Assembly: GCA_021780535.1 (NCBI GenBank)
Contig: JAJXYN010000009.1
Span: 303,923 to 367,922, forward strand
Direction of reading: 5' to 3'
Origin: a bacterium
GTDB taxonomy: Bacteria > Patescibacteriota > Patescibacteriia > JAGPKW01
Length of the DNA stretch: 64,000 nucleotides
Notes under the pieces: model-generated
The model's database searches: none
Told to the model about the DNA's origin: nothing
The model's input: the letters and a program-made list of their open reading frames with translations, nothing else
Program-made: the position numbers and the translations under genes
Part shown: in pieces, positions 8,588 to 35,703 of the stretch
Layout: each line of letters opens with the position of its first letter
Numbering within the stretch: the stretch's first letter is position 1

Positions 8588-8677
8588 GGAGAGGTGGCTG
8601 AGCGGTTGAAAGCACCACACTGCTAACGTGGCAGGGCCTAAAAACCCTCGCAGGTTCAAATCCTGTCCTCTCCGCCA
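8588..8677 (+). tRNA. tRNA-Ser (anticodon GCU)
   Basis: GGAGAGG acceptor stem pairing CCTCTCC, anticodon loop CUGCUAA, long variable arm, T-loop TTCAAAT, 3' GCCA encoded. Confidence 0.85.
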
Positions 8678-9062
8678 TACAGGGCTACCGAGATGCCTAG
8701 TTTTACTATGATGGCATTGATGAAACCCCATTAAATCACCAGAGTTTGGTGATTTTTTGTTTTTTTATTTCTCTAAGATTGGTCAATAAATTTTTGATAA
8801 ATTTCTCAATTTTCGAATATCTTGAAATGCAGACTAGAAATTAACTAAAAACTCCCATTAAAAAATAATTAAACTTGGTTCGAAACCTGTTTGCTCTGTT
8901 GGTAACTAGAGCTTCGCAAGGTTTTTGGTTATGTTAATATACTAATACCAACGCGATATTTGGTCTTATTTGGTAAATTAACAAAAATAAAATAGATACT
9001 TCTCTATAATCGAAAGGTATCTAAATTTATAAAATCTTAATTTTTAATAATAGAGATTAAGA
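8672..9062 (+). repeat. Flank repeat copy A: last 6 nt of tRNA-Ser plus ~385 bp of downstream sequence, repeated at 31021..31412 (and partially at 36283..36410)
   Basis: Direct comparison: ccgccatacagggctaccgagatgcctagttttactatgatggcatt...ttggttcgaaacct...taatagagattaag present in both places with ~90% identity. Confidence 0.8.
8733..8768 (+). terminator. Rho-independent terminator downstream of tRNA-Ser
   Basis: atcacca-gagtt-tggtgat hairpin followed by ttttttgttttttt; same element recurs in the two other flank copies. Confidence 0.6.
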
Positions 9063-9769
9063 ATATATTTAACTAAGAACTGGAGGTAATAAACTCCAGT
9101 TAAAATAAAGATAGAAGCTGTTACATATCTTAATATTTTTTCTACTTTAGATACTATATTTAAAGCTTTACTTAACTTATTAAAACTATAAGCTATTATA
9201 AAAGAAAATAATATTACAGGTAGACCGGTTCCTATCCCAAAGAAAGGAGCTAATAAAAATCCAAAATTAGTTTTAAGTATTAAAGGAATTAATATTCCAA
9301 AAAATAAAGCACCACTATAGGGACAAAAAGCTAAAGAAAATAAAATACCCATAAAAAATGAACCAATATAACCCTTAGTAGATAAATGATTTTTTAGTTG
9401 TTCTATCCTCTTATTTCTTATATTAATGTTTATTTTAATAACACCAAACATTAATAACCCTAATAGTATTAGAACTGGCCCTAAAACTTTATCGCCCCAT
9501 CCTTGAAATAGGCTGGATATTTTGAAAGATGATAAACCAAAATAAATTAGAAGAGCTATTAAAGTATAACTTAAAGATCTTCCTAAAGTATAAAATAAGC
9601 CACTTAAAATAGTTTTCTTTTGAGATTTTAAATCTTTTGAAATATATGCAACTGCAGTTATGTTTGTAGCAAGAGGACAAGGGCTAATTGATACTATAAC
9701 ACCCAAAAGAAAAGCTGTTATCAGTGGAATATTTGATGATTCTATTATTGTATTTATAAAATTTAACAT
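9044..9769 (-). CDS. CcdA/DsbD-family transmembrane thiol-disulfide electron transfer protein
   Basis: VSISPCPLATN first-Cys motif in TM1 as in CcdA (SPCVLP), multiple TM helices. Confidence 0.6.
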   Translation of the reverse strand: MLNFINTIIESSNIPLITAFLLGVIVSISPCPLATNITAVAYISKDLKSQKKTILSGLFYTLGRSLSYTLIALLIYFGLSSFKISSLFQGWGDKVLGPVLILLGLLMFGVIKININIRNKRIEQLKNHLSTKGYIGSFFMGILFSLAFCPYSGALFFGILIPLILKTNFGFLLAPFFGIGTGLPVILFSFIIAYSFNKLSKALNIVSKVEKILRYVTASIFILTGVYYLQFLVKYILNLYY

Positions 9770-11610: not shown

Positions 11611-11617
11611 ATTTATT

Positions 11618-11929
11618 TTATTTAATACTTAAAAAACTATTTAATAATGATGAATACTTTTTAATAATATCTTTATTTAAAGAATAAAAAACTTTTAAAC
11701 CAACTTTATTTGATTTTAATAAATTAAAATATTTCATCACTCTTAAATGATGAGATATAAGGTTTTGGGGAATATCTAAAAACTCTTGTATTTCACATAC
11801 ACATCTTTCTTTGTTTTTAAGAAAGCATACTGTTTTTAATCTATTTTCTTCTGATATTATTTTTAGAAAATCTATCATTTCCGACATCTCTAAACTAATG
11901 TCTTTACAATTGAAACATTCTTTTTGCAT
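11618..11929 (-). CDS. arsR: ArsR/SmtB-family metalloregulator
   Basis: ERCVCEIQEFL (ELCVCD-type metal site) followed by HTH ...QNLISHHLRVMK. Confidence 0.85.
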   Translation of the reverse strand: MQKECFNCKDISLEMSEMIDFLKIISEENRLKTVCFLKNKERCVCEIQEFLDIPQNLISHHLRVMKYFNLLKSNKVGLKVFYSLNKDIIKKYSSLLNSFLSIK

Positions 11930-11943
11930 ATTATTAAGATAAG

Positions 11944-11965
11944 TATATCAATTTATATTGATATA
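11944..11965. promoter_or_regulatory. Putative ArsR operator (8-bp arms inverted repeat tatatcaa-N6-ttgatata) immediately upstream of arsR
   Basis: Perfect inverted repeat; identical element upstream of the second arsR paralog at 39038..39059. Confidence 0.55.
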
Positions 11966-12002
11966 GTATAACTTATTTTATAAATGGTCAAATGTTTATA
12001 AA

Positions 12003-13304
12003 TTAATTTTTAATTAAATTAATTTTCTTGTTTTTCATTATAAATTTATTCTTAAACATACCCATAAACTGTCTTTTTTCTTCTATAGAACCGTGGTTTA
12101 GTATAAACTTGGCATAATCTACTAAGTCTACCTTTCTATCGTTCATACCTCGTTCTACGTTGTTTATTTTAAGTACTTGTTTTTGTAGATGAGCAAATCT
12201 TTCCACTTCTATTCTTAACTTTTCTTTAATGTCTTCTTCTGGAATATCAATATCTTTTAGAAGTTTTATTATTTGCTCTATAAATTGTTCTTCTCTAATA
12301 TATCTATTACTACACTTAAGATCTTTTGTTCTATTACATCCATAGTAAATATATTTATTTACTCCACCATTTTTTAATTTCTTGTGTTTTTCCACCGCAC
12401 ATAAATTAGAGCTGCAATGACCACAAATCATAGAACCTAGAAAAGCAAACTCTTTTTCTCCATATTTGTAACTAGCTTTTCCTAATTTTATTTTTCTTTG
12501 AACGATTTCAAATAATTCTTTTGTAATTATTGGTTGATGATTTCCTTGGCACCAATTACCACTTCCTGCTGGATATTCAAACCATCCATAGTAAAATGGT
12601 CTACCAAGTAATATGTAGATATTTGCTAAAGACAGATTCTTACCACTTTTTGTTGTGAAATTTTGTTTTACAAACCAACTATGCAAAGCCCTACCAGAAT
12701 AGTTTTCATAAGCTACTTTCTCAAACGCTTGTTTGATTATTGGAGCTCTTTCAGGATCTGGAATTACTACTCCTGTTTTATTTTTTCTTTCATCATTAAG
12801 ATAGCCGATAGGAGCAACTCCTATCCAAAATCCTTTTGATGTTTTAATTTTCAAACCTCTTTTTACATTGATACTTTTATTATCATTCTCAAGTTTAGCC
12901 TGACCACCAAGTACTGCTAATAGAAATTTATCATTTGGTGTATTTTTAAAGTTTTGATTATACGTTCTTATTTCTTTAAGATAACTACCGTCTATTAAAT
13001 CTATAATACTTCCTAAATCTCCAGCATTTCTTGAAAGTCTATCAGTATTCCATGTTAGAATACCTTCGAATTTACCTTGTCTTAATTCTTTTATCATTTC
13101 ATTAAATATCGGCCTCTGACTTGAAGCTTTTGCAGAATGAGCCTCTTTTTTTATGCAAACCACATTAAGATTATCTCTTTCTGCTATTAAACTCATTTCA
13201 TTTTCTTGAGCTTCTATTGAAAGAGCCTGTTTTTCATCTTCTTCACTAGATTTTCTAGCATAAAGACAGTATCTAATTTCTGACGAAAACCCTTTGTTTT
13301 CCAT
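12003..13304 (-). CDS. Large serine recombinase (resolvase N-domain + recombinase domain + zinc ribbon)
   Basis: YARKSS (catalytic Ser region), RLSRN, recombinase-domain body and C-terminal CGHCSS...YYGC zinc ribbon. Confidence 0.85.
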   Translation of the reverse strand: MENKGFSSEIRYCLYARKSSEEDEKQALSIEAQENEMSLIAERDNLNVVCIKKEAHSAKASSQRPIFNEMIKELRQGKFEGILTWNTDRLSRNAGDLGSIIDLIDGSYLKEIRTYNQNFKNTPNDKFLLAVLGGQAKLENDNKSINVKRGLKIKTSKGFWIGVAPIGYLNDERKNKTGVVIPDPERAPIIKQAFEKVAYENYSGRALHSWFVKQNFTTKSGKNLSLANIYILLGRPFYYGWFEYPAGSGNWCQGNHQPIITKELFEIVQRKIKLGKASYKYGEKEFAFLGSMICGHCSSNLCAVEKHKKLKNGGVNKYIYYGCNRTKDLKCSNRYIREEQFIEQIIKLLKDIDIPEEDIKEKLRIEVERFAHLQKQVLKINNVERGMNDRKVDLVDYAKFILNHGSIEEKRQFMGMFKNKFIMKNKKINLIKN

Positions 13305-13398
13305 ATATTTATCATTAATTTGTTATCTATACACATTAATGACGCAACCCATCTAGTGCGTCTAGGATGAGCTGTTGGTAAGTAGTTGGTAAATAAAA
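13305..13398. repeat. Conserved right-end sequence of recombinase modules (near-identical to 34199..34291), containing candidate recombination site gttatctatacacattaatgacgcaa with internal inverted repeat gacgca-N10-tgcgtc
   Basis: Only 3 mismatches to the module-B copy across the ~94-bp block, three over ~25 bp near its 3' end, then identity ends abruptly; a variant of the core (tttgttatctatatacattaatgacgcaa) at 30770..30800. Confidence 0.6.
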
Positions 13399-13424
13399 AA
13401 AGATACAATTAATGTACCTTCTTT

Positions 13425-15797
13425 TTATTTATAAAGTTTTACTTTTGGATTATTTCTATACTTATTATAATCAAACCATTTTCTCATTATTATATATTGT
13501 ATTAGTCCAAAAAACATTATTATACCTATCGTTTCAATTGCTTTTATTGGTTCTAATGGTTTTATGTCGAAGAAATGTGATAATGGAGCATTATACATTA
13601 CAAATAATAAAAATATTATAATTATAAATGCAAATAAATATAATGCTTTCTTTTCTTTTTTATCACTTGAGGCGCCATAAGCTTTTGGCGCTAACATAAA
13701 AAACCAATATCCCAAAGCTATAATCACAATAACTACATAACTATTTGAACCATCTAGTTTATAATTAACAGGGCTTAATGCAAATGTAATTATTGATGCA
13801 ATTGCTATTATTACACTGTTTATTGCACAGAATGGTAATATTTTTTTAAAAAATAATTGTTGTGGATTTGCTCCTTCTTTATGTGCTGGAAATAACCCCC
13901 AATAAAGAAATGGGATAAATACAGTACAAACATTTATAATTGTTATATTTCTTGGAGACATTGGGTATGTAAAACCTAAAAGAGATACCCCGACAAACAA
14001 TAAAAACCCTATCATTACTTTATTTAGAAAAATACTTGTAACTAGTTCTATGTTTGTAATAATTGTTTCAGCCATATTAACCCCAATAGGCAATGCGGCA
14101 AAGCTATTGTTCATTAATACTATCTGCGCTATTTGTCTTGTAGCCCCAGCGCCATTAAACATTGCTATACCTAAGTCTGATTTTTTTATAGCTAGGGCGT
14201 CGTTTGCTCCATCTCCAACCATTGCTGTGAATCCTTTTGTTTTTAATATTTCTACTATTTTTTCTTTTTGATCTGGAGTTATTCTTGCAAATATATTACA
14301 GTTTTCTATTTTTTTCTCTAATTTTTCATTACTCCATTTTTTTATTTCCGGCCCAGTTATTATTAATTCTGTATTTTTAATTCCAGCTTCACAAGCTATT
14401 GCTCTTACTGTTTCTGGATTATCACCAGATATTACTCTTATATTAACACCTCTTTTTTGAAAGAAATTTATGATATTTTTTGTCCCGTGTCTTAATGGAT
14501 TATCTAAAACAAACAATCCTAATGGTTCTATTGATTCTTTAGAAAGTTTTTTAGAATGCAAGATTGGCTTTTGTGTTCTTGCTATAAGAACTAAACGCTT
14601 TGCTTTTGGTGTATAAAAATTAATTTTATCTTGAAGCCAATCACGTTTTTCTTTTGTATTTATGTAAGATAATAAAATATCTGGAGCACCAACCACTAAC
14701 GATACATTGCTTTTATTTATTTTTATTGTTGCGTGACCATATTTATATTGTGAAGAAAATGGTAAAAGACTAATTAACTCTGCTGTTACTTTTTTTGTTA
14801 TAACTTTTTTTACTATAGCCCTCATAGTTTCGGTGCCATCTTCTGTTAATCTTACATATTCTTTTATAAGTGTTGATATATAAGATATTTTTTCTTTTCC
14901 GAATACCTCTATCTTTTCTAAGTGTGGTGTATTTTCTGTTAATGTACCTGTTTTATCAACGCAAAGATTTTTTATTCTTCCCAACTTTTCTGTTGCGTTA
15001 ATCTCTTGTAATAATACTTGCTCTTTAAACATTTTAAGTGCTCCATATGCAAAGAATATAGTTATAGAAAGAATAAGGCCTTGTGGTACTAATGTACTTG
15101 TTAGTGTTGCTATATCTTTAACTATAGAAACAAAAAGATCATTTATTGAAAGTCCATATATTACTATATACGCAACTGTTACAAGTAATAAATATGTCAT
15201 GTACTTAATAAAAGTACTAAGAGTTTTTTGTATTGGACTTAAGTTTAAAGAATACTTTTTAATTTCTTCTGTCATTCCTGAGATATAACTTTCTTTTGGT
15301 GTTGCTATAACTTTTATAATACCAAATCCAGCAGTGACTATACTTCCTGCTAATATTTCATTGTTTTTGTGTTTTAATATACTTCTAGATTCTCCGGTGA
15401 TTAAAGCTTCATTGGTTGCTAAACCATAATTTTCTATTAATACACCATCTGCTGGTACTTGATCACCAAGCTTAATTTTTAATTTATCCCCGTTACAAAT
15501 TTTACTTATTGGAATTAAAATTTCATTTCCTTTTTTATCTATTAATGTAGCTTGTGGGGTCATTAGTAATTGTAGTTTTTCAAGTGCTATTTTAGCTCTT
15601 AATTCTTGAAAAATACCTATAACTATATTAAGTATAAAAACTATAGATAAAAACAATGCGTCACGATATTCTTTAAAATAAAACAATAATGAGATTACAA
15701 TAGAGAATAAAAGATTAACCAGAGTAATAAAATTTCTGAATATTACGGGCTTAATATTTTTTATAATCAAATTATATATAGAAGAATCGTTTGACAT
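13425..15797 (-). CDS. Cation-transporting P-type ATPase (P2-type, Ca2+/Mg2+-ATPase-like)
   Basis: TGES, DKTGTLTEN, VGAPD, MVGDGANDALAIKKSDLGIAM; no N-terminal metal-binding domain or CPC. Confidence 0.8.
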   Translation of the reverse strand: MSNDSSIYNLIIKNIKPVIFRNFITLVNLLFSIVISLLFYFKEYRDALFLSIVFILNIVIGIFQELRAKIALEKLQLLMTPQATLIDKKGNEILIPISKICNGDKLKIKLGDQVPADGVLIENYGLATNEALITGESRSILKHKNNEILAGSIVTAGFGIIKVIATPKESYISGMTEEIKKYSLNLSPIQKTLSTFIKYMTYLLLVTVAYIVIYGLSINDLFVSIVKDIATLTSTLVPQGLILSITIFFAYGALKMFKEQVLLQEINATEKLGRIKNLCVDKTGTLTENTPHLEKIEVFGKEKISYISTLIKEYVRLTEDGTETMRAIVKKVITKKVTAELISLLPFSSQYKYGHATIKINKSNVSLVVGAPDILLSYINTKEKRDWLQDKINFYTPKAKRLVLIARTQKPILHSKKLSKESIEPLGLFVLDNPLRHGTKNIINFFQKRGVNIRVISGDNPETVRAIACEAGIKNTELIITGPEIKKWSNEKLEKKIENCNIFARITPDQKEKIVEILKTKGFTAMVGDGANDALAIKKSDLGIAMFNGAGATRQIAQIVLMNNSFAALPIGVNMAETIITNIELVTSIFLNKVMIGFLLFVGVSLLGFTYPMSPRNITIINVCTVFIPFLYWGLFPAHKEGANPQQLFFKKILPFCAINSVIIAIASIITFALSPVNYKLDGSNSYVVIVIIALGYWFFMLAPKAYGASSDKKEKKALYLFAFIIIIFLLFVMYNAPLSHFFDIKPLEPIKAIETIGIIMFFGLIQYIIMRKWFDYNKYRNNPKVKLYK

Positions 15798-15923
15798 TAT
15801 TTATTTAAAACCTTTTATTTTATAGATATATTCTATAAGTAAAAAGACTTACTGTCTATTTGTTATTGGAATATTTTATATCTATGATATTATATAAAAA
15901 TTATTTTAATATATTATTATATT

Positions 15924-16664
15924 ATGAAAAAATTAAATTTACTTTTTAAAACATTAATAATTGTAAGCATCGTAGTTATTATAAAACTAGTTTTTCATTA
16001 TTTTAAAATAGAATTAATTTCTATAAACCCTTTATTTTCAGGGATAATAACAGCTAATGTATTTCTTTTAGGATTTCTTTTAACTGGTGTTCTTAGTGAT
16101 TATAAAGAATCTGAAAAATTACCAGGAGAGCTAGCTTCTTCTATTGAAGCAATTAAGGATGAAGTATCTATAATTTATAAAGCAAAAAATTCTGAAAATG
16201 CTAAAAAATGTTTAGAAGATTTAAAAATATTAACTATTTCTATAAAAGACTGGTTTCATAAAAAAGAGAAGATTTCTGAAATTCAAATAGAGTTATCAAA
16301 TTTTAATAATTATTTTCTTGAGTTTGAAAAAGAAACTCAAGCAAATTTTATAACTAGAATGAAGCAAGAACAAAATAATATTAGAAAATCTCTTACCAGA
16401 ATACACACCATAAGAGATACTAATTTTATATCATCTGGTTATTTAATAGCTAAAACAACAACATTTGCTTTGGTGTTTGGTTTAATTTTATCAAAAATAG
16501 AACCATTTTATGAATCATTGTTTTTTATGGGTGTTATAGTTTTTATGCTTGTATTTATGTTAAATTTAATAAAAGACTTGGATAATCCTTTTTCTTATTA
16601 TGAGAAAGATGCTGTAGAAGAAGTATCTCTTTATCCATTAAACAATTTAATAGATAGATGGTAG
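15924..16664 (+). CDS. Hypothetical membrane protein
   Basis: Several predicted TM helices; no motif. Confidence 0.35.
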   Translation: MKKLNLLFKTLIIVSIVVIIKLVFHYFKIELISINPLFSGIITANVFLLGFLLTGVLSDYKESEKLPGELASSIEAIKDEVSIIYKAKNSENAKKCLEDLKILTISIKDWFHKKEKISEIQIELSNFNNYFLEFEKETQANFITRMKQEQNNIRKSLTRIHTIRDTNFISSGYLIAKTTTFALVFGLILSKIEPFYESLFFMGVIVFMLVFMLNLIKDLDNPFSYYEKDAVEEVSLYPLNNLIDRW

Positions 16665-16721
16665 ATTAAAACACATAATTAACCACAAACAAAAACAGAC
16701 CAAATAAGGTCTGTTTTTAAA

Positions 16722-17009
16722 TTAAATTTTATCCCCACATCCTGGACAAAATTTAGACCCAGAAGTGATCTCTATGCCACAATTTTGGCAAAGCACTTTT
16801 TGATTTAATTGATTTCCGCAATTTTGACAAAATTTTGCATTAGAATTATTTATATATTCATTACATTTATTACAATTAAATCCATTATTATGATTATTAT
16901 TTTCATAATAGTCATCATCTTCGTCTTCTTCATTATGATTTCCTCTGTTGTTGCCGTTTCTATTATTTTTTCCTTCAAAAGCATCAAAAATATTTTCTAA
17001 AAAATCCAT
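16722..17009 (-). CDS. Double zinc-ribbon protein
   Basis: CNKCNEY..CQNCG and CQNCG..CPGCG paired CxxC motifs. Confidence 0.5.
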   Translation of the reverse strand: MDFLENIFDAFEGKNNRNGNNRGNHNEEDEDDDYYENNNHNNGFNCNKCNEYINNSNAKFCQNCGNQLNQKVLCQNCGIEITSGSKFCPGCGDKI

Positions 17010-17051
17010 GTTTATAAATTAATGATTAAAGATAGTTTGTTCTAATAATTG

Positions 17052-18155
17052 CTAATCATTATTAGATTCTGCATTATTTTTATCTAATTCTGTATTAACA
17101 GGTTTTTCTTCCTGTTTTTGTTCTTCTTTTTTATTATCTTCAATTTTTATTTCTGGTGGTTGTATATCTGGTTTATCTTGCTCTTTTGTTGGAATTATAT
17201 CCTGATTATTTGTGTTAATGGTATTACTATCTATATTCTGATTTTCATTTATTTTTTCGTTATTATTTTCTTTGATGTCTATTTTTTCCTGTTCTGCATT
17301 GTCTATAGTATCTGCATGATTATTTTCTTTTTCGTTTTTAGAATTATCGGATTTTTTTACATCTTCTACTTTATTATCTTCTGAATTTATATCTTTTGCT
17401 TCTTTATTATTATCATCATTATTTTCAATATTTAATTTGTTTGTATCATCTTTTTGGCTTTCTTCATTCATATCTTCTTGTTCTATTGTTGGAGTTATTT
17501 CATCTATAGCTTTTATTGTTTCTTGCAATATCTCTTTGTCTATTTTTGGATTACTTTCTAATTTTTCTCTATCCTGTTTAATTTCATTAAAGATTTTATT
17601 TTGTTTTATTTTCTTTTCTATAAATATCTTTACTGCCACTTTTTTTTGTTTTTCATCTTTTATATTTGATATTTCTGTATTTATTTTGTTATTTAGTTTT
17701 GATATTTCAAGTATTGTGTTTGCTATTGCTGAATTATATGAATTGTTATCTTCTGCATAAGCTATGTTAATTAAAGAAATTTGTTTGTTTAATTTGTTAA
17801 AATTTTTATTTTTTAAATATTCAACTTCAGCAACTCTTTTATCTATCAATACTGAATAATATTTTACTTTTGATAAACCTGTTTTTGTTTGAGATATTAC
17901 ATTTTCAATTCCTGTTTTTACGCCATAAAAAGGAGTGCCAAATGTTATAGAATTTGAATTGTATGAATAAATTGTAGATGTTGTTAAAACGATCAATAAT
18001 AGACCAACTATTGCTGGTTTTAATACGTAATTAAATTTAAATATATTTAAGTGCTTAAAATATAATTTAAAAAACATTCTAAAGTCTCTTAATGGACTTA
18101 AGTTTCTCTTAGAAATTTTATTCAATTTTTCAATTAACTCAATTTCTTTTTTCAT
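17052..18155 (-). CDS. Membrane protein co-transcribed with ECF sigma (putative anti-sigma factor) with acidic low-complexity C-terminus
   Basis: 4-nt overlap with upstream sigma gene; single TM (IVGLLLIVLTTSTIY); long D/E/N/K-rich tail. Confidence 0.4.
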   Translation of the reverse strand: MKKEIELIEKLNKISKRNLSPLRDFRMFFKLYFKHLNIFKFNYVLKPAIVGLLLIVLTTSTIYSYNSNSITFGTPFYGVKTGIENVISQTKTGLSKVKYYSVLIDKRVAEVEYLKNKNFNKLNKQISLINIAYAEDNNSYNSAIANTILEISKLNNKINTEISNIKDEKQKKVAVKIFIEKKIKQNKIFNEIKQDREKLESNPKIDKEILQETIKAIDEITPTIEQEDMNEESQKDDTNKLNIENNDDNNKEAKDINSEDNKVEDVKKSDNSKNEKENNHADTIDNAEQEKIDIKENNNEKINENQNIDSNTINTNNQDIIPTKEQDKPDIQPPEIKIEDNKKEEQKQEEKPVNTELDKNNAESNND

Positions 18156-18670
18156 GTCTTTTGGTTTATTATATCTTTCAAGTTTTTAAGAGCTCTTGAA
18201 ACTCCTGTTCTTATTGCAATTTTATTCTTCTTTAATACTTGCTCCATTTCTTCATATTCTAAATCATCAAAAAACTTGAGAGCTATTAAATATTGATCTG
18301 TTTTGTTTAATTGTTTTATTGCTTCTTTTAAACTTTCTATTGATGTTTTTGTGTCTATTAAATTATTTAAAAAATCTTTATCATCTACATGCACTTTACT
18401 ATCAATATTTTCATCAATATCATCAATTATTAACAATTCTTTACTTTTTCTAAAATAATCTACTAGATGATTGTGTGCCACCTTATATATCCAAACTTTA
18501 ATATTGTTTTCATTTTGTATTGAATCTATTTTGTCTATTACTTTTTCAAATACATCTTCTGTTAAATCTTCTGATAATTCTTTATCAAAATTTGTTCTAA
18601 ATAAAAAATAATTAAAGATATTACCTTTGAATTCGTTGTATATTGATGTGAATTTTATAAAATCAGACAT
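18152..18670 (-). CDS. ECF-type sigma-70 family sigma factor
   Basis: Region 2 (DLTEDVFEKV...WIYKVAHNHLVDYFRK) and region 4 HTH (EMEQVLKKNKIAIRTGVSRALKNLK). Confidence 0.7.
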   Translation of the reverse strand: MSDFIKFTSIYNEFKGNIFNYFLFRTNFDKELSEDLTEDVFEKVIDKIDSIQNENNIKVWIYKVAHNHLVDYFRKSKELLIIDDIDENIDSKVHVDDKDFLNNLIDTKTSIESLKEAIKQLNKTDQYLIALKFFDDLEYEEMEQVLKKNKIAIRTGVSRALKNLKDIINQKT

Positions 18671-18738
18671 ATTTTATTTATTCTCAAATTAAGAGACGTA
18701 TTACTTAATAATTTATTACATTTTTTAATAAAAAGCTA

Positions 18739-18781
18739 TATGTAATATTTTTTTATGATATTCGTATCTTTATACGTAAGA
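18739..18781 (+). promoter_or_regulatory. 42-bp promoter-like repeat, copy 1 (atgtaatattttt...attCGTAtc)
   Basis: Direct repeat of copy at 18858..18899; contains GTAAT...N16...CGTA resembling ECF (SigW-type) -35/-10. Confidence 0.35.
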
Positions 18782-18857
18782 CAAAAAATTTGTTAGCTTA
18801 ATAATAGACTAGCATAATGGCCCGTAATGGGCTTATTTATTATATAAATAATAAATA

Positions 18858-18899
18858 TGTAATGTTTTTAAAAGATATTCGTCTCTTTATGTGTAAGAA
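18858..18899 (+). promoter_or_regulatory. 42-bp promoter-like repeat, copy 2
   Basis: ~80% identical to copy 1, ~57 nt upstream of 18956 start. Confidence 0.35.
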
Positions 18900-18955
18900 T
18901 TTTAAATAACTAAAGGTCGGAAATAAATTTTAAATAATAATTAACTAAAATCAAT

Positions 18956-19759
18956 ATGAAAACAAACAAAATATTAGTTCCAGCTTTAATGCTTTCACTT
19001 TTTGTAACTCCTTATGTTTTTGCTGAAGATAATAACAATATTCAAAATAACGATAATCAAAATAATATTGGAGTAAGTGAAAATCAAGACAAACAAGATA
19101 ATAATGAATCATTAAAACAACAACGAGAAAGAAATAGAGAACAAAATAAACAAGAGCAGGAAAGAATCAGAGAACAAAATAAACAAGATTTAGAACAACA
19201 AGATGAGCAAGATGATAATGAGCAAGATCAAGAAGATAACGAAGATCAAAACATTGTAAAACAATTAGATAATTCAAATGATTTTAATTATGTTGATTCT
19301 TTAAAAATTGATAAAAATAATATAAATAAATATAGTGATGTAGTTTTGATGCTTAATAATTTTAAAGATGTGTTAGTAAAAATAAAGGATGCTACAAACA
19401 TTCAATCATCTATAGACTCTAGCTTAACAGATGCTGAAAAGGCATTATTAGGTCAATTGGTTTCTCAAAATAAGAATATATTTAGCGAGACAACAAAAAA
19501 CATTGATGAATTAAACTCATATATAGATCAATATGTTAAATTACTAACTCCACTTGGTGATGCCAATATTTCTAAGTATATAAAAGGATATTTACTATCA
19601 GAATTAAATAATATGAAAGATTTGATAAGTAACGAGCAAGACTTAGCAAAAGAAGCTATTAATTCTGTAATGTACGCTCCAGTGCCTGTAAGTACAACAA
19701 CATCTACTATACCAGCAACATCTAGCTCATCAACTTCTACAACTACAACAACTAACTAA
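18956..19759 (+). CDS. Secreted low-complexity protein (Q/N/E-rich repeats, S/T-rich C-terminus)
   Basis: Signal peptide MKTNKILVPALMLSLFVTPYVFA; REQNKQEQERIREQNKQ repeats. Confidence 0.5.
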   Translation: MKTNKILVPALMLSLFVTPYVFAEDNNNIQNNDNQNNIGVSENQDKQDNNESLKQQRERNREQNKQEQERIREQNKQDLEQQDEQDDNEQDQEDNEDQNIVKQLDNSNDFNYVDSLKIDKNNINKYSDVVLMLNNFKDVLVKIKDATNIQSSIDSSLTDAEKALLGQLVSQNKNIFSETTKNIDELNSYIDQYVKLLTPLGDANISKYIKGYLLSELNNMKDLISNEQDLAKEAINSVMYAPVPVSTTTSTIPATSSSSTSTTTTTN

Positions 19760-20146: not shown

Positions 20147-20249
20147 ACCTTACTAATTTACAAGAAGTAGACAAACAGTAGATAAATATGCTTTACTTTT
20201 GCCTTTTTTCAAGTTAATATAATAATACAATTTAATTTGCCTAAACTAA

Positions 20250-20400
20250 TACCAACAGGTGTTGGCATGGCATAAAATCCATAACGAACAAGCTAGGTCT
20301 TCTGACTAGTATTTTTCGTTATGGTCTACATTCGAAAGGATGTAGGGCTAAACCTCGAAAGAGGCATGCCAAAATACTTTGTCGGGAGGCCTTTTTGTTT
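20250..20400 (+). ncRNA. Candidate structured RNA (unclassified): closing helix ggcatg/catgcc enclosing a 10-bp helix with nested hairpin, a ctacat/atgtag hairpin with tcGAAAgg loop and a cctc-GAAA-gagg hairpin
   Basis: Multi-helix arrangement with two GAAA tetraloops, local GC ~42% in a 25% background, no ORF, ~40 nt upstream of a small gene. Confidence 0.35.
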
Positions 20401-20691: not shown

Positions 20692-21783
20692 ATGGAAAAG
20701 AAAATATTACAAACAAATCAATGCCCGTTTTGCTTTAATAAAATAGATATTAGAGCAATTAAATGTGATAAATGTCGCTCTGATTTAACTACAAATGAAG
20801 CACAAAATAAGATTAGAAAAATATTAGATGAACAAACAGACAAAAAGAATAAAGAGACTGATAAAAATAATCAACAAAAAAGTCATACAATAAAAATATT
20901 TTTTTATGTAGCATCTTTCTTGTTATTTTTAGCACTAGTTTCGTTACACGCTTTAGGGTATTCTATATTTTTTGCATTAGCTATAGCTTTTGTTGTTTAT
21001 CAAGACAAAGTATTTAATATTATTGATAAGAATTATAAGATTGAAGAAAAAAATAAATTTCAAAAAACCATTAGAAAAGTTATTATAGGTTTTCTTGCTT
21101 TAATATTTTTAGGATGTTTTATAGCTTTCATGCAACAAGCAACAGAAAGCCCAGAACATAAATTAGCAAGGCAAAAAGTTGAACAAGAACAAATTCAAAA
21201 AACAAATGAAGCTAAGCAAAAGGCTGACGCAGAAGCAAAAAGAATAGCAGATGAAAAAATCAAACAAGAAAAAGCACAAAGAGAGCAAGAGGCTCCAGCT
21301 AAAATAACTAGCTTTATACAACAAGTTAAAGATATAAAAACTGATAAGAAATATGAAGATGTAAAAAGTATAGAACTTGAAGCAATATCAATTAATGCTT
21401 TTGGACAAATAATAAAAGAATATAGAGCCGATTTCCCAGATAATAAAGAAATACAAAATCTTACAAATCAATTGGAAACGTCTGTTAAAAATAAACAATT
21501 ATCTTTATTCCCAAATTTAAGAAAAAATTATGGAACTATTTCTAAAAATCTTCTTTGGGAAAATGATGTAGAAGCTAGTGTTTTTGGGACTGGAAATAGC
21601 ACAATAGAATTTGTTGGTGGAGTATTTGCATCAAATAAAAACATAAAAGAATTCTATTCTAAAATAGCAGATATGTTAAAAGAATTAAGATTTGATAGAG
21701 CTAATTTCAAATGGTATTCATATGATAATGGGTCTTATTATGAAATAGAAAGCTTAAAGGATGGAGAATTCTTGATTAAATAG
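20692..21783 (+). CDS. Membrane protein with N-terminal zinc ribbon and coiled-coil region
   Basis: CPFC...CDKC, 3 TM helices, KQEKAQREQE coiled coil. Confidence 0.4.
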   Translation: MEKKILQTNQCPFCFNKIDIRAIKCDKCRSDLTTNEAQNKIRKILDEQTDKKNKETDKNNQQKSHTIKIFFYVASFLLFLALVSLHALGYSIFFALAIAFVVYQDKVFNIIDKNYKIEEKNKFQKTIRKVIIGFLALIFLGCFIAFMQQATESPEHKLARQKVEQEQIQKTNEAKQKADAEAKRIADEKIKQEKAQREQEAPAKITSFIQQVKDIKTDKKYEDVKSIELEAISINAFGQIIKEYRADFPDNKEIQNLTNQLETSVKNKQLSLFPNLRKNYGTISKNLLWENDVEASVFGTGNSTIEFVGGVFASNKNIKEFYSKIADMLKELRFDRANFKWYSYDNGSYYEIESLKDGEFLIK

Positions 21784-21816: not shown

Positions 21817-23247
21817 TTAGTCTATTATGTAAATACGAGGCGGTCCTTTGTATTCAGTAATAAAGTATATACAAGCTATTGTTAAAGCATCGACTAAATC
21901 ATCATGTTTAGTGCTTCCAAAATCTAATATTTGATTTATTAATTCTTTATTACAACCCTTAGGAAATCTTATAATACCTTCTTTTATATGATTAGAAATC
22001 ATATTCAATCTAGTTCTTTTATCCTTACCACCAAGACTATAAGATACAACACCATCTACACCATCCTTTTTCAATTGTTGTTCTATTGCTTGTTGATAGC
22101 CATTATTTTCTATAATTATTTTAGTTCTTCTTTCGTTATTTTCTTTAATATCTTTTAGTGTTTGTATTGTCTCAGGAAACTTCATTTTCTTATTTATAAT
22201 CTCAGGCATTACATAAATAATATTTTTATGACCATATTCTCCAACATCTTCTTGATAACATTTTATTGTAACTATTCCAGTATAATCAGCTGTATCTCTT
22301 TGAGATATAGCAGGATCTACTCCTGTTATATAAGTTAGGAATTGTCCGTCTCTATGAGTTATTTCATCATAATAATGTATCCATTCAGGCTCTATAATTG
22401 CATCATCATCAGGAACTATTTTTAACATATACTCTCTTTCAAATATTCTGTCATTAAAAACTTTCCTTCTCTCAAATTCTATTGCATCAGTATTAGGATA
22501 TTTTGATAACCAGTTTATAGTTCCATCATCTTCCATTAATTTTATTTCTTTATAAATGCCATCAATTTCATTAAGTTCTAATTTATCTTTCATTCTCATT
22601 AAAAGTGAATCTCTGTGGAGTAAATTACCAACAAAAATCATTCTAGTATTAATATCTCCAGTTGGAATAATTTCACCAGTAATCCAATCAAACATCTTAT
22701 TTCTACTTTCCATAGTTCTAACAGATTCTGTATCTTCAATATCATCACAAATAATAATTTGAGGCCTATTACTTTTATGTCTAATACCACGAATAGATTG
22801 TTCCATGGAAACTGCCATTATTTTTGCATCATATTCTGGAATTAAAATACATCTATTATTCCATTCTTTGTCTGAAATTGAATAACTATAATCTTCTTTT
22901 AACAACCTATTTTCTTCAAGTTCACGACGAATATTTATTAAATGTTGTCGCGCTTGTTTTTCTGTTTTTCCAAGAACAAGAATAAATTTAATATTATTAT
23001 TCAATATAGACCATATAGGGAATGAGGTAGTGATAATAGTTGATTTAGCAGAACCACGAAAAGCTACTATTACTAAATTTCTTATACTATCATCCTTAAT
23101 TAAACCAAATAATTCTTTATGAAAAGGTGCTGATTTTAACTTTAGATAATGTCTAAAATAAATTCCAAAAAATACCCTATTATCAAGTTTAGAGGCATAA
23201 ATTCTGGAAACTTTATTTTTAATTATATTGTCAAAATCAACACTCAT
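21817..23247 (-). CDS. Phage terminase large subunit
   Basis: VIVAFRGSAKST Walker-A-like ATPase motif; C-terminal RNaseH-like nuclease motif DDLVDALTIA. Confidence 0.8.
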   Translation of the reverse strand: MSVDFDNIIKNKVSRIYASKLDNRVFFGIYFRHYLKLKSAPFHKELFGLIKDDSIRNLVIVAFRGSAKSTIITTSFPIWSILNNNIKFILVLGKTEKQARQHLINIRRELEENRLLKEDYSYSISDKEWNNRCILIPEYDAKIMAVSMEQSIRGIRHKSNRPQIIICDDIEDTESVRTMESRNKMFDWITGEIIPTGDINTRMIFVGNLLHRDSLLMRMKDKLELNEIDGIYKEIKLMEDDGTINWLSKYPNTDAIEFERRKVFNDRIFEREYMLKIVPDDDAIIEPEWIHYYDEITHRDGQFLTYITGVDPAISQRDTADYTGIVTIKCYQEDVGEYGHKNIIYVMPEIINKKMKFPETIQTLKDIKENNERRTKIIIENNGYQQAIEQQLKKDGVDGVVSYSLGGKDKRTRLNMISNHIKEGIIRFPKGCNKELINQILDFGSTKHDDLVDALTIACIYFITEYKGPPRIYIID

Positions 23248-23249
23248 TT

Positions 23250-23618
23250 TTATAAATTATTTAATGATTCTTTTAATTCTTCTTTTTCTTCATCAGATAG
23301 TTCAATTTCATTCTTAATCTTTCCTGATAACTGAACTTTAGTTCTGAATTTCTCATGTCTATTCTTTAACCAGAATATTACAGCTGTAAGTTCATTATCT
23401 TTAATGTTTTGTATTAAAGTACTTTCTGCCATATCATTTATCAATTCAGAACCTCTTTGGATTGCATCATCAACTTTAGATTTCAATTCAAAATCTTTCT
23501 CTATCCAACGATAAAAAGTTTGTCTTGTTATTCCTATCTTCTTACAAGCAATTTCTATAATAGGAGCTTTCTCTAATTCTGAAATTAATCTATCTGTGAT
23601 AGCCTTAGTTTTTTTCAT
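23250..23618 (-). CDS. Phage terminase small subunit-like HTH protein
   Basis: IGITRQTFYRWIEKD HTH and AVIFWLKNRHEKFR motif typical of TerS; immediately upstream of TerL. Confidence 0.55.
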   Translation of the reverse strand: MKKTKAITDRLISELEKAPIIEIACKKIGITRQTFYRWIEKDFELKSKVDDAIQRGSELINDMAESTLIQNIKDNELTAVIFWLKNRHEKFRTKVQLSGKIKNEIELSDEEKEELKESLNNL

Positions 23619-27134: not shown

Positions 27135-27338
27135 ATTTCTAAAATTACTTAATTAATTTATAAATTCTGACCTTTGAAGGAGAGATTTTTAACGCTTATA
27201 GGTAGTATACAATAAAAAAATATTTTTGTAAACAAGTGAAAGTGTTTTTTAAAAATATTAACTTATTTAAATTAAAACTTTACATATGTAAACTTTTAGT
27301 ATAAAATACTAGTAGATAACAAAGAAATCACACAAAAT

Positions 27339-30763: not shown

Positions 30764-30906
30764 TTTTGTTTTTGTTATCTATATACATTAATGACGCAAT
30801 AAAAATCACATATCTAGCAGTTGATAACTTATAATATTTTAGGCTAATATTAGCTATATTATGCTGATATTTATCTATAAAGTCAAGTTAAAAACCTTCT
30901 ATTTTT

Positions 30907-31020
30907 TATGTGTAACATTTGTAACATTTTTTTGCGACCGAGATGCCTCATTTTTCTCCAAAATCCTACCCCCAAAACCCCTTATGGTGCTTGTATGTGT
31001 GGGTACCAGACCGAGGCTTC
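30907..31020 (+). repeat. ~115-bp repeat unit (tgtgtaacatttgtaacattt...gcgACCGAGATGCCtcatttttctcc...cttcccgcc), second copy at 35475..35629
   Basis: ~85% identity between copies; contains a second instance of the accgagatgcc motif also present just downstream of tRNA-Ser. Confidence 0.7.
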
Positions 31021-31412
31021 CCGCCATACAGGGCTACCGAGATGCCTAGTTTTACTATGATGGCATTGAGTTATCCCAGAAAAATCATCAGAAATGGTGA
31101 TTTTTTGTTTTTTTATTTCTCTAAGGTTGGTCAATAAATTTTTTATAAATTTCTCAATTTTCGAATACCTTGAAATGCAGATTATAAATTAATGAAAATC
31201 CCTCATTAATAAACAATTAAATTTGGTTCGAAACCTAGATGCTCTGTTGGTAACTAGAGCTTCGCAAGGTTTTTGGTTATGTTAACATACTAATACCAAC
31301 GCGACATTTCGGTCTTATTTGGTAAATTAACAAAAATAAAAAAAGATACTTCTCTATAATCGAAAGGCGTCTAAATTATAAAATCTTAATTTTTAATAAT
31401 AGAGATTAAGAA
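31021..31412 (+). repeat. Flank repeat copy B (partial tRNA-Ser 3' end ccgcca + downstream flank)
   Basis: See copy A; terminator hairpin variant atcatca-gaaa-tggtgat. Confidence 0.8.
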
Positions 31413-31541
31413 AAATATTTAATAAATTAACTAATAATATATGATTTAAAATCTTCATCATTTCTTCATTTTGATTTGATATGATTTGTAGTTATTGGTT
31501 TATGGAGTTAGAATTATTTAATAAATATATAATTATAATTT

Positions 31542-32882: not shown

Positions 32883-32896
32883 TATTAGTAAGAATA

Positions 32897-34198
32897 TTAA
32901 TTTTTTATTAAACTAATCTTCTTATTTTTCATTACAAACTTATTCTTAAACATACCCATAAACTGTCTTTTTTCTTCTATAGAACCGTGATTTAATATAA
33001 ACTTGGCATAATCTACCAAGTCTACTTTTCTATCGTTCATACCTCTTTCTACATTGTTTATTTTTAGTACTTGTTTTTGTAGATGAGCAAATCTTTCTAC
33101 TTCTATTCTTAACTTTTCTTTAATGTCTTCTTCGGGAATATCAATATCTTTTAGAAGCTTTACTATTTGCTCTATAAATTGTTCTTCTCTAATATATCTA
33201 TTACTACATTTAAGATCTTTTGTTCTATTACATCCATAGTAAATATATTTATTTACTCCACCATTTTTTAATTTCTTATGTTTTTCTACTGCACATAAAT
33301 TAGAACTACAATGGCCACAAATCATAGACCCTAAGAATGCAAATTCTTTTTCTCCATATCTATAACTAGCTTTTCCTAATTTTATTTTTCTTTGAACTAT
33401 TTCAAAGAGTTCTTTTGTAATTATTGGTTGATGATTTCCTTGGCACCAATTACCACTTCCTGCTGGATATTCAAACCATCCATAATAAAAAGGCCTTCCA
33501 AGTAGTATATAGATATTTGCTAAGGATAAATTCTTACCACTTTTTGTCGTGAAATTTTGCTTTACAAACCAACTATGTAAAGCTCTACCAGAATAGTTTT
33601 CATAAGCCACCTTCTCAAATGCTTGTTTAATTATTGGGGCTCTTTCAGTATCTGGAATTACTACTCCTGTTTTATTTTTTCTTTCATCATTAAGATATCC
33701 AATAGGCGCAACTCCTATCCAAAATCCTTTTGATGTTTTAATTTTAAGACCTCTTTTTACATTGATACTTTTATTATCATTCTCAAGTTTAGCCTGACCG
33801 CCAAGTACAGCTAATAGAAATTTATCATTCGGAGTATTTTTAAAGTTTTGATTATATGTTCTTATTTCTTTCAGGTAACTACTATCTATCAGGTCTATTA
33901 TACTTCCTAAATCCCCGGCATTTCTTGAAAGTCTATCAGTATTCCATGTTAGAATACCTTCAAATTTTCCTTGTCTTAATTCTTTTATCATTTCATTAAA
34001 TACTGGTCTTTGACTTGAAGCTTTTGCAGAATGGGCTTCTTTTTTTATACAAACTACATTTAAACTATCTCTTTCTGCTATTAAACTCATTTCATTCTCT
34101 TGAGCTTCTATCGAAAGAGCTTGTTTTTCGTCTTCTTCACTAGATTTTCTAGCATAAAGACAATATCTAATTTCTGATGAAAACCCTTTGTTTTCCAT
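32897..34198 (-). CDS. Large serine recombinase (second copy)
   Basis: 8 aa differences from 12003..13304 over 433 aa. Confidence 0.85.
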   Translation of the reverse strand: MENKGFSSEIRYCLYARKSSEEDEKQALSIEAQENEMSLIAERDSLNVVCIKKEAHSAKASSQRPVFNEMIKELRQGKFEGILTWNTDRLSRNAGDLGSIIDLIDSSYLKEIRTYNQNFKNTPNDKFLLAVLGGQAKLENDNKSINVKRGLKIKTSKGFWIGVAPIGYLNDERKNKTGVVIPDTERAPIIKQAFEKVAYENYSGRALHSWFVKQNFTTKSGKNLSLANIYILLGRPFYYGWFEYPAGSGNWCQGNHQPIITKELFEIVQRKIKLGKASYRYGEKEFAFLGSMICGHCSSNLCAVEKHKKLKNGGVNKYIYYGCNRTKDLKCSNRYIREEQFIEQIVKLLKDIDIPEEDIKEKLRIEVERFAHLQKQVLKINNVERGMNDRKVDLVDYAKFILNHGSIEEKRQFMGMFKNKFVMKNKKISLIKN

Positions 34199-34339
34199 AT
34201 ATTTATCATTAATTTGTTATCTATACACATTAATGACGCAACCCATCTAGTGCGTCTAGGATGAGTTGTTGGTAAGTTGTAGGTAAATAAAAAAGAGCCC
34301 TGTTGTCAGGGCTCTACTCAAGAAAGATTGACTTGTGTG

Positions 34340-35307: not shown

Positions 35308-35703
35308 ACGTACCTCCTTGTCCTATTTTGGACTCTATTACTATAACATAAATAGTACATTTTGTCAATTATTTTTGCCATCTTTACTTATTATTTTTAT
35401 TTAATACTATTCAATAAAATATAAACATTTTTGAATATGTAGTGTCGCATATGTCGCATTAAATTTGTCTTTTTTTGTGTAACATTTGTAACATTTTACA
35501 TCCTATGTACTGTCTAATTTGTCCAATTTTTACCTCTGCGACCGAGATGCATCATTTTTCTCCAAAACCCTACTCTTAAAACCCCTTATGGTACTTGTAT
35601 GTATGAGTACCAAACCGAGACTTCCCGCCTTCGCTCGCTATAGCGAGCTTCAGCGGATAAATCCGCAAGGATATTATTCAAAGAAAATACTCCATTAAAA
35701 AAT

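What the first reader, a model, noticed from the sequence alone, without database searches (positions are those of the whole stretch)
13305..13400. Candidate serine-recombinase recombination site gttatctatacacattaatgacgcaa with three copies (13322, 34215, variant at 30773)
Immediately upstream of both recombinase start codons lies an identical block containing an inverted repeat gacgca-N10-tgcgtc.
- A third, half-site-like variant (tttgttatctatatacattaatgacgcaa, then diverging) lies at 30770..30800. This is just beyond the TIR gene and before the 115-bp repeat unit.
- This pattern (two full sites plus a hybrid or degenerate site) is what attL/attR/attB-type products of a serine recombinase would look like.
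- Alternatively it is the recombinase promoter/operator retained in three copies.
Basis: seen in the sequence. Interest (0 to 1): 0.55.

Follow-up and report, generated by a model that had tools for sequence, protein, structure and literature searches.

The report
Recombinase gene control region, not crossover site
The repeated 26-29-bp block is the best-conserved core of a roughly 90-bp control region that sits in front of a large serine recombinase gene found across Patescibacteria. It occurs three times here because two related mobile elements sit in tandem at a tRNA-Ser gene and one of them keeps an extra copy with no gene behind it. The recombination junctions themselves are most likely at the tRNA 3' end.

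Summary
The 26-mer occurs at 13322 and 34216 (exact) and at 30774 (one mismatch), with none expected by chance.

The att-site reading is not supported.
- Both recombinases (12003-13304 and 32897-34198, minus strand) are intact large serine recombinases.
- Their silent sites have diverged (dS 0.43), yet the 67 nt upstream are identical, so that region is strongly constrained.
- The same layout precedes homologous genes in about 65 of 80 Patescibacteria loci: GTTAYCWAC repeats, a TTGAC-like box, exactly 14 nt, then GCGTCAT. The strict composite motif occurs nowhere else in 1.28 Mb.
- No RNA structure is conserved.
- In 48 of 80 loci a tRNA gene lies just past the recombinase 3' end, so integration is at tRNA 3' ends and the motif is internal.

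The window holds two tandem elements at tRNA-Ser (8588-8677). Each ends in a pseudo-tRNA block (30933-31026, 35537-35629).

The third copy (30764-30828) is a gene-less paralogue that keeps the same boxes and spacing. It opens a conserved 263-bp terminal block.

The role of the third copy is unresolved.

The parts
13305..13400 (-). S1: 5' control region of recombinase gene rec1. Read on the minus strand it contains TTTACCAAC (13393-13385), CTTACCAAC (13382-13374), the TTGAC-like box TAGACG (13364-13359), a 14-nt spacer, GCGTCAT (13345-13339), TATAGATAAC, then the ATG at 13304.
   Evidence: A profile built from 65 family loci, with this lineage left out, hits it at E = 8e-5. It shows 3 differences in 96 nt against S2 while silent sites differ by 32%.
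34199..34294 (-). S2: the same control region in front of rec2. It is bounded distally by the terminator hairpin of a GC-rich cargo insert.
   Evidence: (E = 2e-4).
30764..30828 (-). S3: a gene-less paralogue of the control region. Read on the minus strand it contains GTTATCAAC (30828-30820), CTAGAT, a 14-nt spacer, GCGTCAT (30797-30791) and TATAGATAAC. It starts within 10 nt of the stop codon of the TIR-domain gene.
   Evidence: Its boxes are 42/45 invariant in three lineages against 129/181 for the rest of the block, Fisher p = 0.0016. The family profile does not detect it at E <= 1.
13319..13347 (.). X: the 29-bp core shared by all three copies (also at 34213-34241 and 30771-30799). It covers the GCGTCAT box and the 20 nt towards the gene.
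12003..13304 (-). rec1: large serine recombinase, 433 aa.
   Evidence: Pfam Resolvase, Recombinase and Zn_ribbon_recom domains. The R17/S19 catalytic motif is invariant in the family alignment. The nearest solved structure is the SPbeta-type YokA, E = 8e-12.
32897..34198 (-). rec2: second copy, 98% identical in protein and 93% in DNA.
   Evidence: dS 0.43, dN 0.011.
8588..8677 (+). tRNA-Ser(GCT): the inferred integration target. Its 3' end, CTCTCCGCCA, forms the left junction.
   Evidence: Related elements sit at tRNA-Ser(GCT) in L006 and tRNA-Ser(TGA) in L004.
8672..9072 (+). B1: element-borne tRNA trailer with terminator, the left end of element I. B2 at 31021-31422 is the left end of element II. 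A partial relic B3 lies at 36275-36403.
   Evidence: B-like sequence also follows the tRNA in L004 and L006.
30903..31026 (+). F1 (two TGTAACA direct repeats, 30903-30930) and E1 (pseudo-tRNA-length block ending CTTCCCGCCA, 30933-31026). Together they form the right end of element I.
35470..35629 (+). F2 and E2: the right end of the degenerate element II. A different trailer follows.

Best explanation
S1 and S2 are the 5' control region of the large serine recombinase (LSR) gene: a promoter with operator sites. The 29-bp block is its most constrained core, made of the invariant GCGTCAT box plus the region where transcription probably starts.

The region appears twice in full because two related, anciently diverged integrative elements sit in tandem at one tRNA-Ser gene. 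These are element I, about 8672-31026, and element II, about 31021-35629.

The third copy, S3, is a paralogue of the same control region with no gene behind it. It opens the conserved 263-bp right-terminal block of element I (S3, then the TGTAACA repeats, then the pseudo-tRNA block). It most likely still binds the same factor or polymerase, firing or acting leftward against the end of the convergent cargo operon.

None of the three is the recombinase crossover site. Integration and excision are inferred to occur at the tRNA 3' end, at the shared core CCGCCA.

Shown: positions, conservation, selection, spacing, synteny and the tRNA association. Inferred: promoter/operator activity, which protein binds, and that S3 is active.
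For: 1. Position and geometry are conserved in front of homologous genes that share only 50-55% protein identity. The layout is GTTAYCWAC (often two direct copies 11-12 nt apart), a T[GAT][GA][AG]C box, exactly 14 nt, GCGTCAT, then 10-45 nt to the ATG.
2. The strict composite motif is found 41 times upstream of the recombinase gene and 0 times elsewhere in 1.28 Mb on both strands.
3. A profile built without this lineage finds S1 (E = 8e-5) and S2 (E = 2e-4).
4. Between rec1 and rec2, dS = 0.43 and dN = 0.011, yet the proximal 67 nt upstream are identical and the 96 nt carry 3 changes.
5. RNAalifold finds no consensus structure in 67 sequences, so the element acts at the DNA level.
6. A terminator of the preceding cargo gene lies directly distal to S in W1, W2 and L004. 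The recombinase gene therefore needs its own promoter inside these 90 nt.
7. S is internal to the element. TerL/TerS, the methylases and the LOOT RNA lie beyond it in the window, L004 and L006, with only the cargo differing.
8. Element ends map elsewhere. The tRNA-to-B1 junction and the E1-to-B2 junction share CCGCCA. E-type ends are followed by three unrelated flanks.
9. 48 of 80 family loci (41 of the 56 with a full flank) have an opposite-strand tRNA 154-5700 bp past the recombinase 3' end. Only 1 of 80 has a tRNA upstream.
10. S and S3 show no similarity to the junction sequences: local alignment scores sit at the shuffle mean.
11. S3 keeps the boxes and the 14-nt spacing. Its boxes are more conserved than the rest of the terminal block in three lineages (42/45 against 129/181, p = 0.0016).
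Against: - No canonical sigma-70 promoter is found on the gene's strand. GCGTCAT and the bases after it are a poor -10 hexamer, so the sigma factor is unknown and the promoter call rests on geometry.
- S3 has no gene downstream. In three lineages a convergent gene ends within 10 nt of it, which is odd for a promoter.
- The family profile does not detect S3. No gene-less copies were seen within 10 kb of the gene in the 80 other loci, so the third copy may be peculiar to this lineage.
- The S3 conservation test was designed after seeing the boxes and rests on three lineages.
- No empty tRNA site or circle junction was recovered, so the tRNA crossover is inferred rather than observed.
- The motif's exclusive link with the recombinase gene would also fit a site bound by the recombinase itself.
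Confidence: 0.6

Rival explanations
1. The three copies are recombination sites of the serine recombinase. They could be attL/attR/attB-type products, or res-like sites that also act as operator. Recombination between direct copies would then excise the 17.4-kb phage-like segment (S1 x S3) or the 3.4-kb recombinase cassette (S3 x S2). The crossover would be at the AA at 13346-13347 and 30798-30799.
For: - All three copies are in direct orientation. Identity with the third copy stops abruptly at AA.
- S3 has outer GTTATC / GATAAC inverted motifs, and the X-type half has a shorter spacing than the other half. This is reminiscent of attB-type and attP-type half-sites (read from the sequence).
- The motif occurs only next to recombinase genes.
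- Known resolvase res sites lie upstream of the recombinase gene and double as operators (established knowledge of Tn3 and gamma-delta).
Against: - The sites are internal, and conserved synteny continues on both sides.
- Element ends and the family-wide tRNA association point to another crossover site.
- The motif is conserved across relatives that target different tRNAs.
- Beyond AA the third copy keeps homologous boxes with an indel, which means paralogy rather than exchange.
- Degenerate element II keeps a full S2 rather than the hybrid expected after S x S3 deletion.
- No recombinant context appeared among 4 metagenome hits and 1 viral hit.
- There is no similarity to the junction sequences.
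- The GACGCA-N10-TGCGTC repeat is not conserved.
Confidence: 0.1
2. S1 and S2 are the promoter/operator, but S3 is an inert relic. It would be the control region of a former tandem neighbour whose recombinase gene was deleted. That deletion fused the phage-like body to the neighbour's S, F and E end, and the fused element then spread.
For: - Degenerate element II has just the layout that would leave such a relic: recombinase gene, S2, short cargo, F2, E2.
- B1 and B2 carry a further, much more decayed S-like fragment, CTGTTGGTAACTAG, at 8893-8906 and 31241-31254. Relics of this region therefore do accumulate at this locus.
- The family profile does not detect S3.
- Nothing lies downstream of S3 on its strand.
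Against: - S3 boxes are significantly better conserved than the rest of the non-coding block across three lineages that differ by 11-22%.
- All boxes and the exact 14-nt spacing are kept, while the spacers have diverged.
Confidence: 0.2
3. The block works at the RNA level. One possibility is a structured 5' leader of the recombinase mRNA. Another is that X, carried in the 3' untranslated region of the convergent cargo or immunity operon that ends 8 nt before S3, pairs in trans with the recombinase leader (28/29 complementary) and holds recombinase expression down during lysogeny.
For: - In three lineages a different plus-strand gene ends within 10 nt of S3, so X is probably transcribed in the sense complementary to the recombinase leader.
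- X lies 15-43 nt from the ATG.
Against: - There is no conserved secondary structure in 67 leaders and no Rfam match.
- If the TTGAC-like box and GCGTCAT are promoter elements, transcription starts inside X and only about 13 nt could pair.
- In L007 the two copies match at only 25/29.
Confidence: 0.07

Closest known systems
Promoter/operator regions of site-specific recombinase genes, for example the Tn3 / gamma-delta res region upstream of tnpR
   Same: A conserved non-coding block lies immediately upstream of a serine recombinase gene. It is repeated in direct orientation on the same DNA and is under strong constraint. This is compatible with autoregulation.
   Different: The enzyme here is a 433-aa large serine recombinase, not a small resolvase. 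No dimer-type inverted repeat around a central dinucleotide is conserved. The copies are internal to elements whose ends lie at a tRNA. Binding by the recombinase has not been shown.
attP/attB/attL/attR sites of large serine integrases (phiC31, Bxb1, A118, SPbeta)
   Same: The site is short, lies next to the integrase gene, and one copy shares only part of its sequence with the others.
   Different: It is not at the element boundaries. It is conserved across relatives with different tRNA targets. The divergent half is a paralogue with an indel, not foreign DNA. No recombinant junctions were found.
tRNA-targeting integrative elements and prophages, classically with tyrosine integrases
   Same: There is an intact tRNA at one end and a short copy of the tRNA 3' end at the other. 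The integrase gene sits next to the tRNA end, and tandem arrays occur at one tRNA.
   Different: The only recombinase is a large serine recombinase. In mycobacterial prophages, tRNA attB sites are reported for tyrosine integrases, while serine integrases have short common cores (PMC10654092). The shared core here is only CCGCCA, and the element carries its own 400-bp tRNA trailer.
Convergent antisense promoters at operon ends in temperate phages, such as lambda oop (from general knowledge)
   Same: S3 is a promoter-like element that points into the 3' end of a convergent operon containing the S24-type repressor gene.
   Different: No transcript has been shown. S3 copies the recombinase control region rather than being a dedicated small-RNA promoter.

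Membership tests
Large serine recombinase attachment site (attP/attB/attL/attR) | Lies at the boundary between mobile element and host, so the flank on one side changes between occupied and empty sites. | tested here: not met
   TerL/TerS, the methylases and the LOOT RNA lie beyond the site in the window, L004 and L006, and only the cargo between them varies. The boundaries map to the tRNA-Ser 3' end and to the ends of the E blocks.
Large serine recombinase attachment site (attP/attB/attL/attR) | Imperfect inverted-repeat half-sites around a central dinucleotide, conserved among close relatives. | tested here: not met
   GACGCA-N10-TGCGTC is absent in L006, has N12 in L004, and sits in two other registers in the family. 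TCATTAAT-N15-ATTAATGA has an odd spacer, and its left arm is missing in S3.
Large serine recombinase attachment site (attP/attB/attL/attR) | Hybrid sites share one half with a partner and carry unrelated DNA on the other side of the crossover. | tested here: not met
   Beyond AA, S3 still carries TCTAG and GTTGATAAC, homologous to TCTAG and GTTGGTAAG of S1 with a 6-bp indel. Its left flank is not the recombinase gene.
Large serine recombinase attachment site (attP/attB/attL/attR) | Recombinant junctions (circle, empty site) exist in reads or in other assemblies. | tested here: inconclusive
   Only parental contexts appeared among the contigs found by pattern scans. Raw reads cannot be searched with these tools.
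Promoter/operator of the recombinase gene | Fixed position upstream of the start codon in homologous genes, with fixed spacing between sequence boxes. | tested here: met
   The TTGAC-like box, 14 nt and GCGTCAT lie 10-45 nt from the ATG. There are 41 strict matches upstream of the gene and 0 elsewhere in 1.28 Mb.
Promoter/operator of the recombinase gene | Non-coding sequence evolves much more slowly than silent sites of the adjacent gene. | tested here: met
   0 changes in the proximal 67 nt and 3 in 96 nt, against 32% difference at silent sites.
Promoter/operator of the recombinase gene | Recognisable -35 and -10 hexamers for a known sigma factor, and a mapped transcription start. | tested here: inconclusive
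   The upstream box resembles TTGACA (TTGACT in L042 and L096). GCGTCAT and what follows is not a sigma-70 -10, and the consensus scan finds nothing on the gene's strand. The transcription start cannot be tested here.
Structured cis-regulatory RNA (Rfam-type leader) | Conserved secondary structure with covariation, or a match to a curated family. | tested here: not met
   RNAalifold predicts 0 pairs in 67 sequences. There is no Rfam match at the site.
tRNA-targeting integrative element (context of the site) | Intact tRNA at one end, a copy of its 3' end at the other, and the integrase gene next to the tRNA end. | tested here: met
   tRNA-Ser lies at 8588-8677. E1 and E2 end in CTTCCCGCCA, against CTCTCCGCCA for the tRNA. 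48 of 80 family loci have an opposite-strand tRNA past the recombinase 3' end.
tRNA-targeting integrative element (context of the site) | An unoccupied target site exists in a related genome. | tested here: inconclusive
   Look-ups of flanking proteins returned only occupied or short contigs.

The most novel reading that the evidence does not exclude
S and S3 are binding sites for the recombinase itself, or for an unknown partner. In the excised circle they bracket the attP-plus-recombinase module, in the order S3, F, E, core, B, recombinase gene, S. They would couple recombinase expression and the direction of recombination to the integration state. This would be a res-like accessory and operator architecture in a large serine recombinase family that targets tRNA 3' ends across Patescibacteria.
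Probability: 0.15. Interest if true: 0.6.

Novelty: new member of a known kind. Interest (0 to 1): 0.35.

Why it matters
For the finding itself, the result removes a false att-site call and places the real junctions at the tRNA-Ser 3' end. Anyone delimiting these elements, or mining this recombinase for attP/attB pairs, needs that.

More broadly, three points could be useful.
- It defines a roughly 90-bp DNA element, absent from Rfam and found only next to this gene, that marks a very large Patescibacteria recombinase family.
- It suggests that this family of large serine recombinases uses tRNA 3' ends. That habit is usually tied to tyrosine integrases.
- It shows that variable, defence-like cargo is inserted right next to both copies of the element.

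If the element proves to be bound by the recombinase, it would be a simple handle on how these enzymes are regulated in organisms that cannot be cultured.

Tried and rejected
- An exact-pattern scan of genome contigs for the 26-mer found nothing.
- The metagenome scan gave 4 contigs and the viral scan 1, all in parental contexts.
- A viral scan for the TGTAACA repeat returned mostly unrelated contigs with similar iterated motifs. A scan for the start of the E block returned only L007.
- Rfam gave no match at the gathering threshold or at the permissive threshold.
- The sigma-70 and terminator scan found no promoter on the gene's strand.
- RNAalifold on 67 leaders predicted no structure.
- The family profile found no further gene-less copies in 80 loci and missed S3.
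- Local alignment of S1 and S3 against the reconstructed attP, attL and attR scored at the shuffle mean.
- Look-ups of flanking host proteins, meant to find an empty tRNA-Ser site, failed.
- I considered a minimal 1.4-kb mobile unit made of the recombinase gene plus site. I rejected it because the different right flanks are cargo inside one syntenic element.
- I considered that degenerate element II arose by S x S3 deletion. I rejected it because S2 is a full site.
- I considered an ECF-sigma type promoter (GAC, 15 nt, CGTC). It could not be tested.
- The literature search found no description of this family or element.

Full report
**Observation.** The 26-mer is present at 13322 and 34216 (exact) and at 30774 (one mismatch). 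None is expected in shuffled sequence. A self-comparison widens the three-way match to 29 bp, TTTGTTATCTATA[C/T]ACATTAATGACGCAA. The two recombinase genes are on the minus strand (12003-13304 and 32897-34198). The block therefore lies 15-43 nt upstream of each start codon. Both proteins have the Resolvase, Recombinase and Zn_ribbon_recom domains of large serine recombinases. Their nearest solved relative is the SPbeta-type enzyme.

**What is repeated.**
- The duplicated module is only the gene plus 96 nt upstream: 12002-13400 matches 32896-34294 at 93%.
- The two genes are old copies. Silent sites differ by 32% (dS 0.43) while dN is 0.011.
- The proximal 67 nt upstream are identical, and the 96 nt carry three changes. 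The upstream region is therefore as constrained as the protein.
- Distal to it, each copy (and L004) has the terminator of an unrelated cargo gene. The gene must therefore be driven from within these roughly 90 nt.

**Context.** The window is a metagenome contig. Close relatives (84% protein identity; L004/L005/L011 and L006-L009) share one gene order: tRNA-Ser, a 400-bp trailer block B, variable genes, the recombinase gene, S, variable cargo, LOOT RNA, a 363-aa ORF (20692-21783), TerL, TerS, methylases.

The far end in L007/L008, and in a third lineage L010, is a conserved non-coding block equal to window 30764-31026. It contains S3, about 75 nt, two TGTAACA repeats (F), and a block E that aligns in register with the tRNA and ends in CTTCCCGCCA (tRNA: CTCTCCGCCA). 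After CCGCC the flanks differ: B2 in the window, another trailer after E2, and a different host in L010.

The window therefore holds two elements in tandem at tRNA-Ser.
- Element I spans 8672-31026. It has phage-like packaging genes but no capsid genes.
- Element II spans 31021-35629. It is a degenerate 4.6-kb copy with a GC-rich insert.
- Older relics follow.

This accounts for two full copies of S without any recombination between them.

**Family level.** The recombinase belongs to a very large Patescibacteria family, with thousands of proteins at 50-55% identity.
- In 80 fetched loci, 48 have a tRNA on the opposite strand 154-5700 bp past the gene's 3' end. That is 41 of the 56 loci with a complete flank.
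- The tRNAs are Ser in 22 loci, Gln in 13, and eight other kinds in the rest.
- The nearest downstream tRNA is never on the same strand as the gene. Only one locus has a tRNA within 6 kb upstream.

Integration at tRNA 3' ends, with the gene's 3' end facing the junction, is the simplest reading. S is then inside the element.

**The upstream element.** About 65 of the 80 loci carry the same layout in front of the gene: GTTAYCWAC (often twice, 11-12 nt apart), a TTGAC-like box, exactly 14 nt, GCGTCAT, then 10-45 nt to the ATG.
- The strict composite occurs 41 times upstream of the gene and nowhere else in 1.28 Mb.
- A profile built without the window's lineage still finds S1 and S2.
- RNAalifold finds no shared fold, and Rfam has no match.

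In the window the GACGC sits where the family has GGACT, and L006 lacks the repeat. S and S3 are no more similar to the tRNA-junction sequences than shuffled sequence is.

**The third copy.** S3 is not a half-site.
- On the gene's strand it reads GTTATCAAC, CTAGAT, 14 nt, GCGTCAT, TATAGATAAC. These are the same boxes and the same spacing as S, with diverged spacers and a 6-bp indel.
- Its boxes are 42/45 invariant across three lineages, against 129/181 for the rest of the block (p = 0.0016).
- No gene follows it. In all three lineages a different convergent gene ends within 10 nt of it.
- The family profile misses it, and no such extra copies were seen near the gene in other loci.

Its origin is most simply the control region of a former tandem neighbour that lost its gene. 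Element II shows that layout. Whether it still works is open.

**Mechanism.**
- Most likely (0.6): S is the promoter/operator of the recombinase gene, and X is its core.
- S3 is a retained copy that binds the same factor and acts against the end of the convergent cargo operon.
- The recombinase acts at the tRNA 3' end.
- The sigma factor and any regulator are unknown. The -10 is not sigma-70-like.
- Autoregulation by the recombinase is possible, because the motif travels only with this gene.

**Rivals.** The rivals are true recombination sites (0.1), an inert relic for S3 (0.2) and an RNA-level role (0.07).

**Novelty.** The finding is an ordinary kind of feature, a recombinase control region, in a family not previously described in these terms. 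The tRNA targeting by a large serine recombinase is the more unusual by-product. In mycobacterial prophages, tRNA sites belong to tyrosine integrases (PMC10654092).

Noticed in passing
L022-L101 (80 loci); window 8588-8677 with 12003-13304: A Patescibacteria-wide family of roughly 440-aa large serine recombinases is consistently followed, past its 3' end, by an opposite-strand tRNA gene: 48 of 80 loci, with Ser in 22 and Gln in 13. This suggests serine-recombinase integration at tRNA 3' ends, a habit usually tied to tyrosine integrases.
   Followed up: partly
window 8687-8698, 30937-30948, 31010-31015, 31036-31047, 35541-35552, 35614-35619; L023, L040, L055, L058, L090, L093: A GACCGAG-type motif lies 10-30 nt after the tRNA 3' end in many family loci. 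In the window ACCGAG occurs six times on the plus strand, all in the B and E junction blocks. It is a candidate recombinase-binding motif of the true att arms, but the copies are direct repeats, not inverted.
   Followed up: partly
window 30933-31026 and 35537-35629: The E blocks have the same length as tRNA-Ser, align with it in register and end in CTTCCCGCCA. They look like pseudo-tRNA arms of the element's attP. ARAGORN does not call them as tRNAs.
   Followed up: partly
window 30903-30930 and 35470-35497; L018 371-403: Two TGTAACA direct repeats 9 nt apart are invariant in three lineages. A 33-bp near-identical stretch occurs in the unrelated viral contig L018. Other viral contigs carry arrays of TGTTACA/GTAACA motifs. 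This may be a shared DNA-binding site.
   Followed up: no
window 20238-20354; L004 2292-2532; L006 7172-7407: A LOOT RNA (Rfam RF03000, 67 bits) is conserved in all three related elements, between the variable cargo and the 363-aa ORF next to the terminase.
   Followed up: no
window 13425-19759, 30104-30763, 34340-35307; L004 2684-9873; L006 7623-9848: Variable cargo sits directly next to both S and S3.
- Window: a P-type ATPase and an ECF-like sigma factor, a ThsB-like TIR protein, and two GC-rich ORFs of unknown function.
- L004: a type I restriction system with a reverse transcriptase.
- L006 and L002: methyltransferases.
The two conserved blocks look like borders of cargo or defence hotspots.
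   Followed up: partly
window 21817-23618: Large and small terminase subunits are clear (PHROGs 1.9e-84 and 2.2e-13), but no capsid, portal or tail genes were recognised in the 22-kb element. It may be a satellite-like or cryptic element rather than a full prophage.
   Followed up: partly
window 34295-35330: This 1-kb stretch has 42% GC in a 26% GC contig. It holds two minus-strand ORFs (174 and 148 aa) with no Pfam hit and its own strong terminator, inserted between S2 and the right end of element II. The same arrangement is seen in an independent sample (L103).
   Followed up: no
window 27312-27324: TAGTAGATAACAAAG, about 15 nt upstream of the ATG of the S24-peptidase (CI/LexA-like) repressor gene, matches the tail of X (TATAGATAACAAAT) at 12 of 15 positions. 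It could be a shared operator or chance.
   Followed up: no
window 8893-8906 and 31241-31254: The trailer blocks B1 and B2 contain CTGTTGGTAACTAG, a decayed fragment of the distal part of S. This suggests repeated decay of recombinase modules at this tRNA.
   Followed up: no
window 11612-12023 vs 38708-39114; 28997-29097 vs 36109-36209; 36275-36403: There are further diverged duplications: the ArsR gene next to rec1 and a second ArsR at 38.7 kb (86%), a 101-bp piece of the 393-aa ORF (28036-29217) (93%), and a third partial trailer copy. They point to older element remnants to the right of element II.
   Followed up: no
window 36432-36546 and 46078-46175: Self-comparison shows long AT-rich palindromes of about 100-115 bp (75-79% self-complementary).
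   Followed up: no
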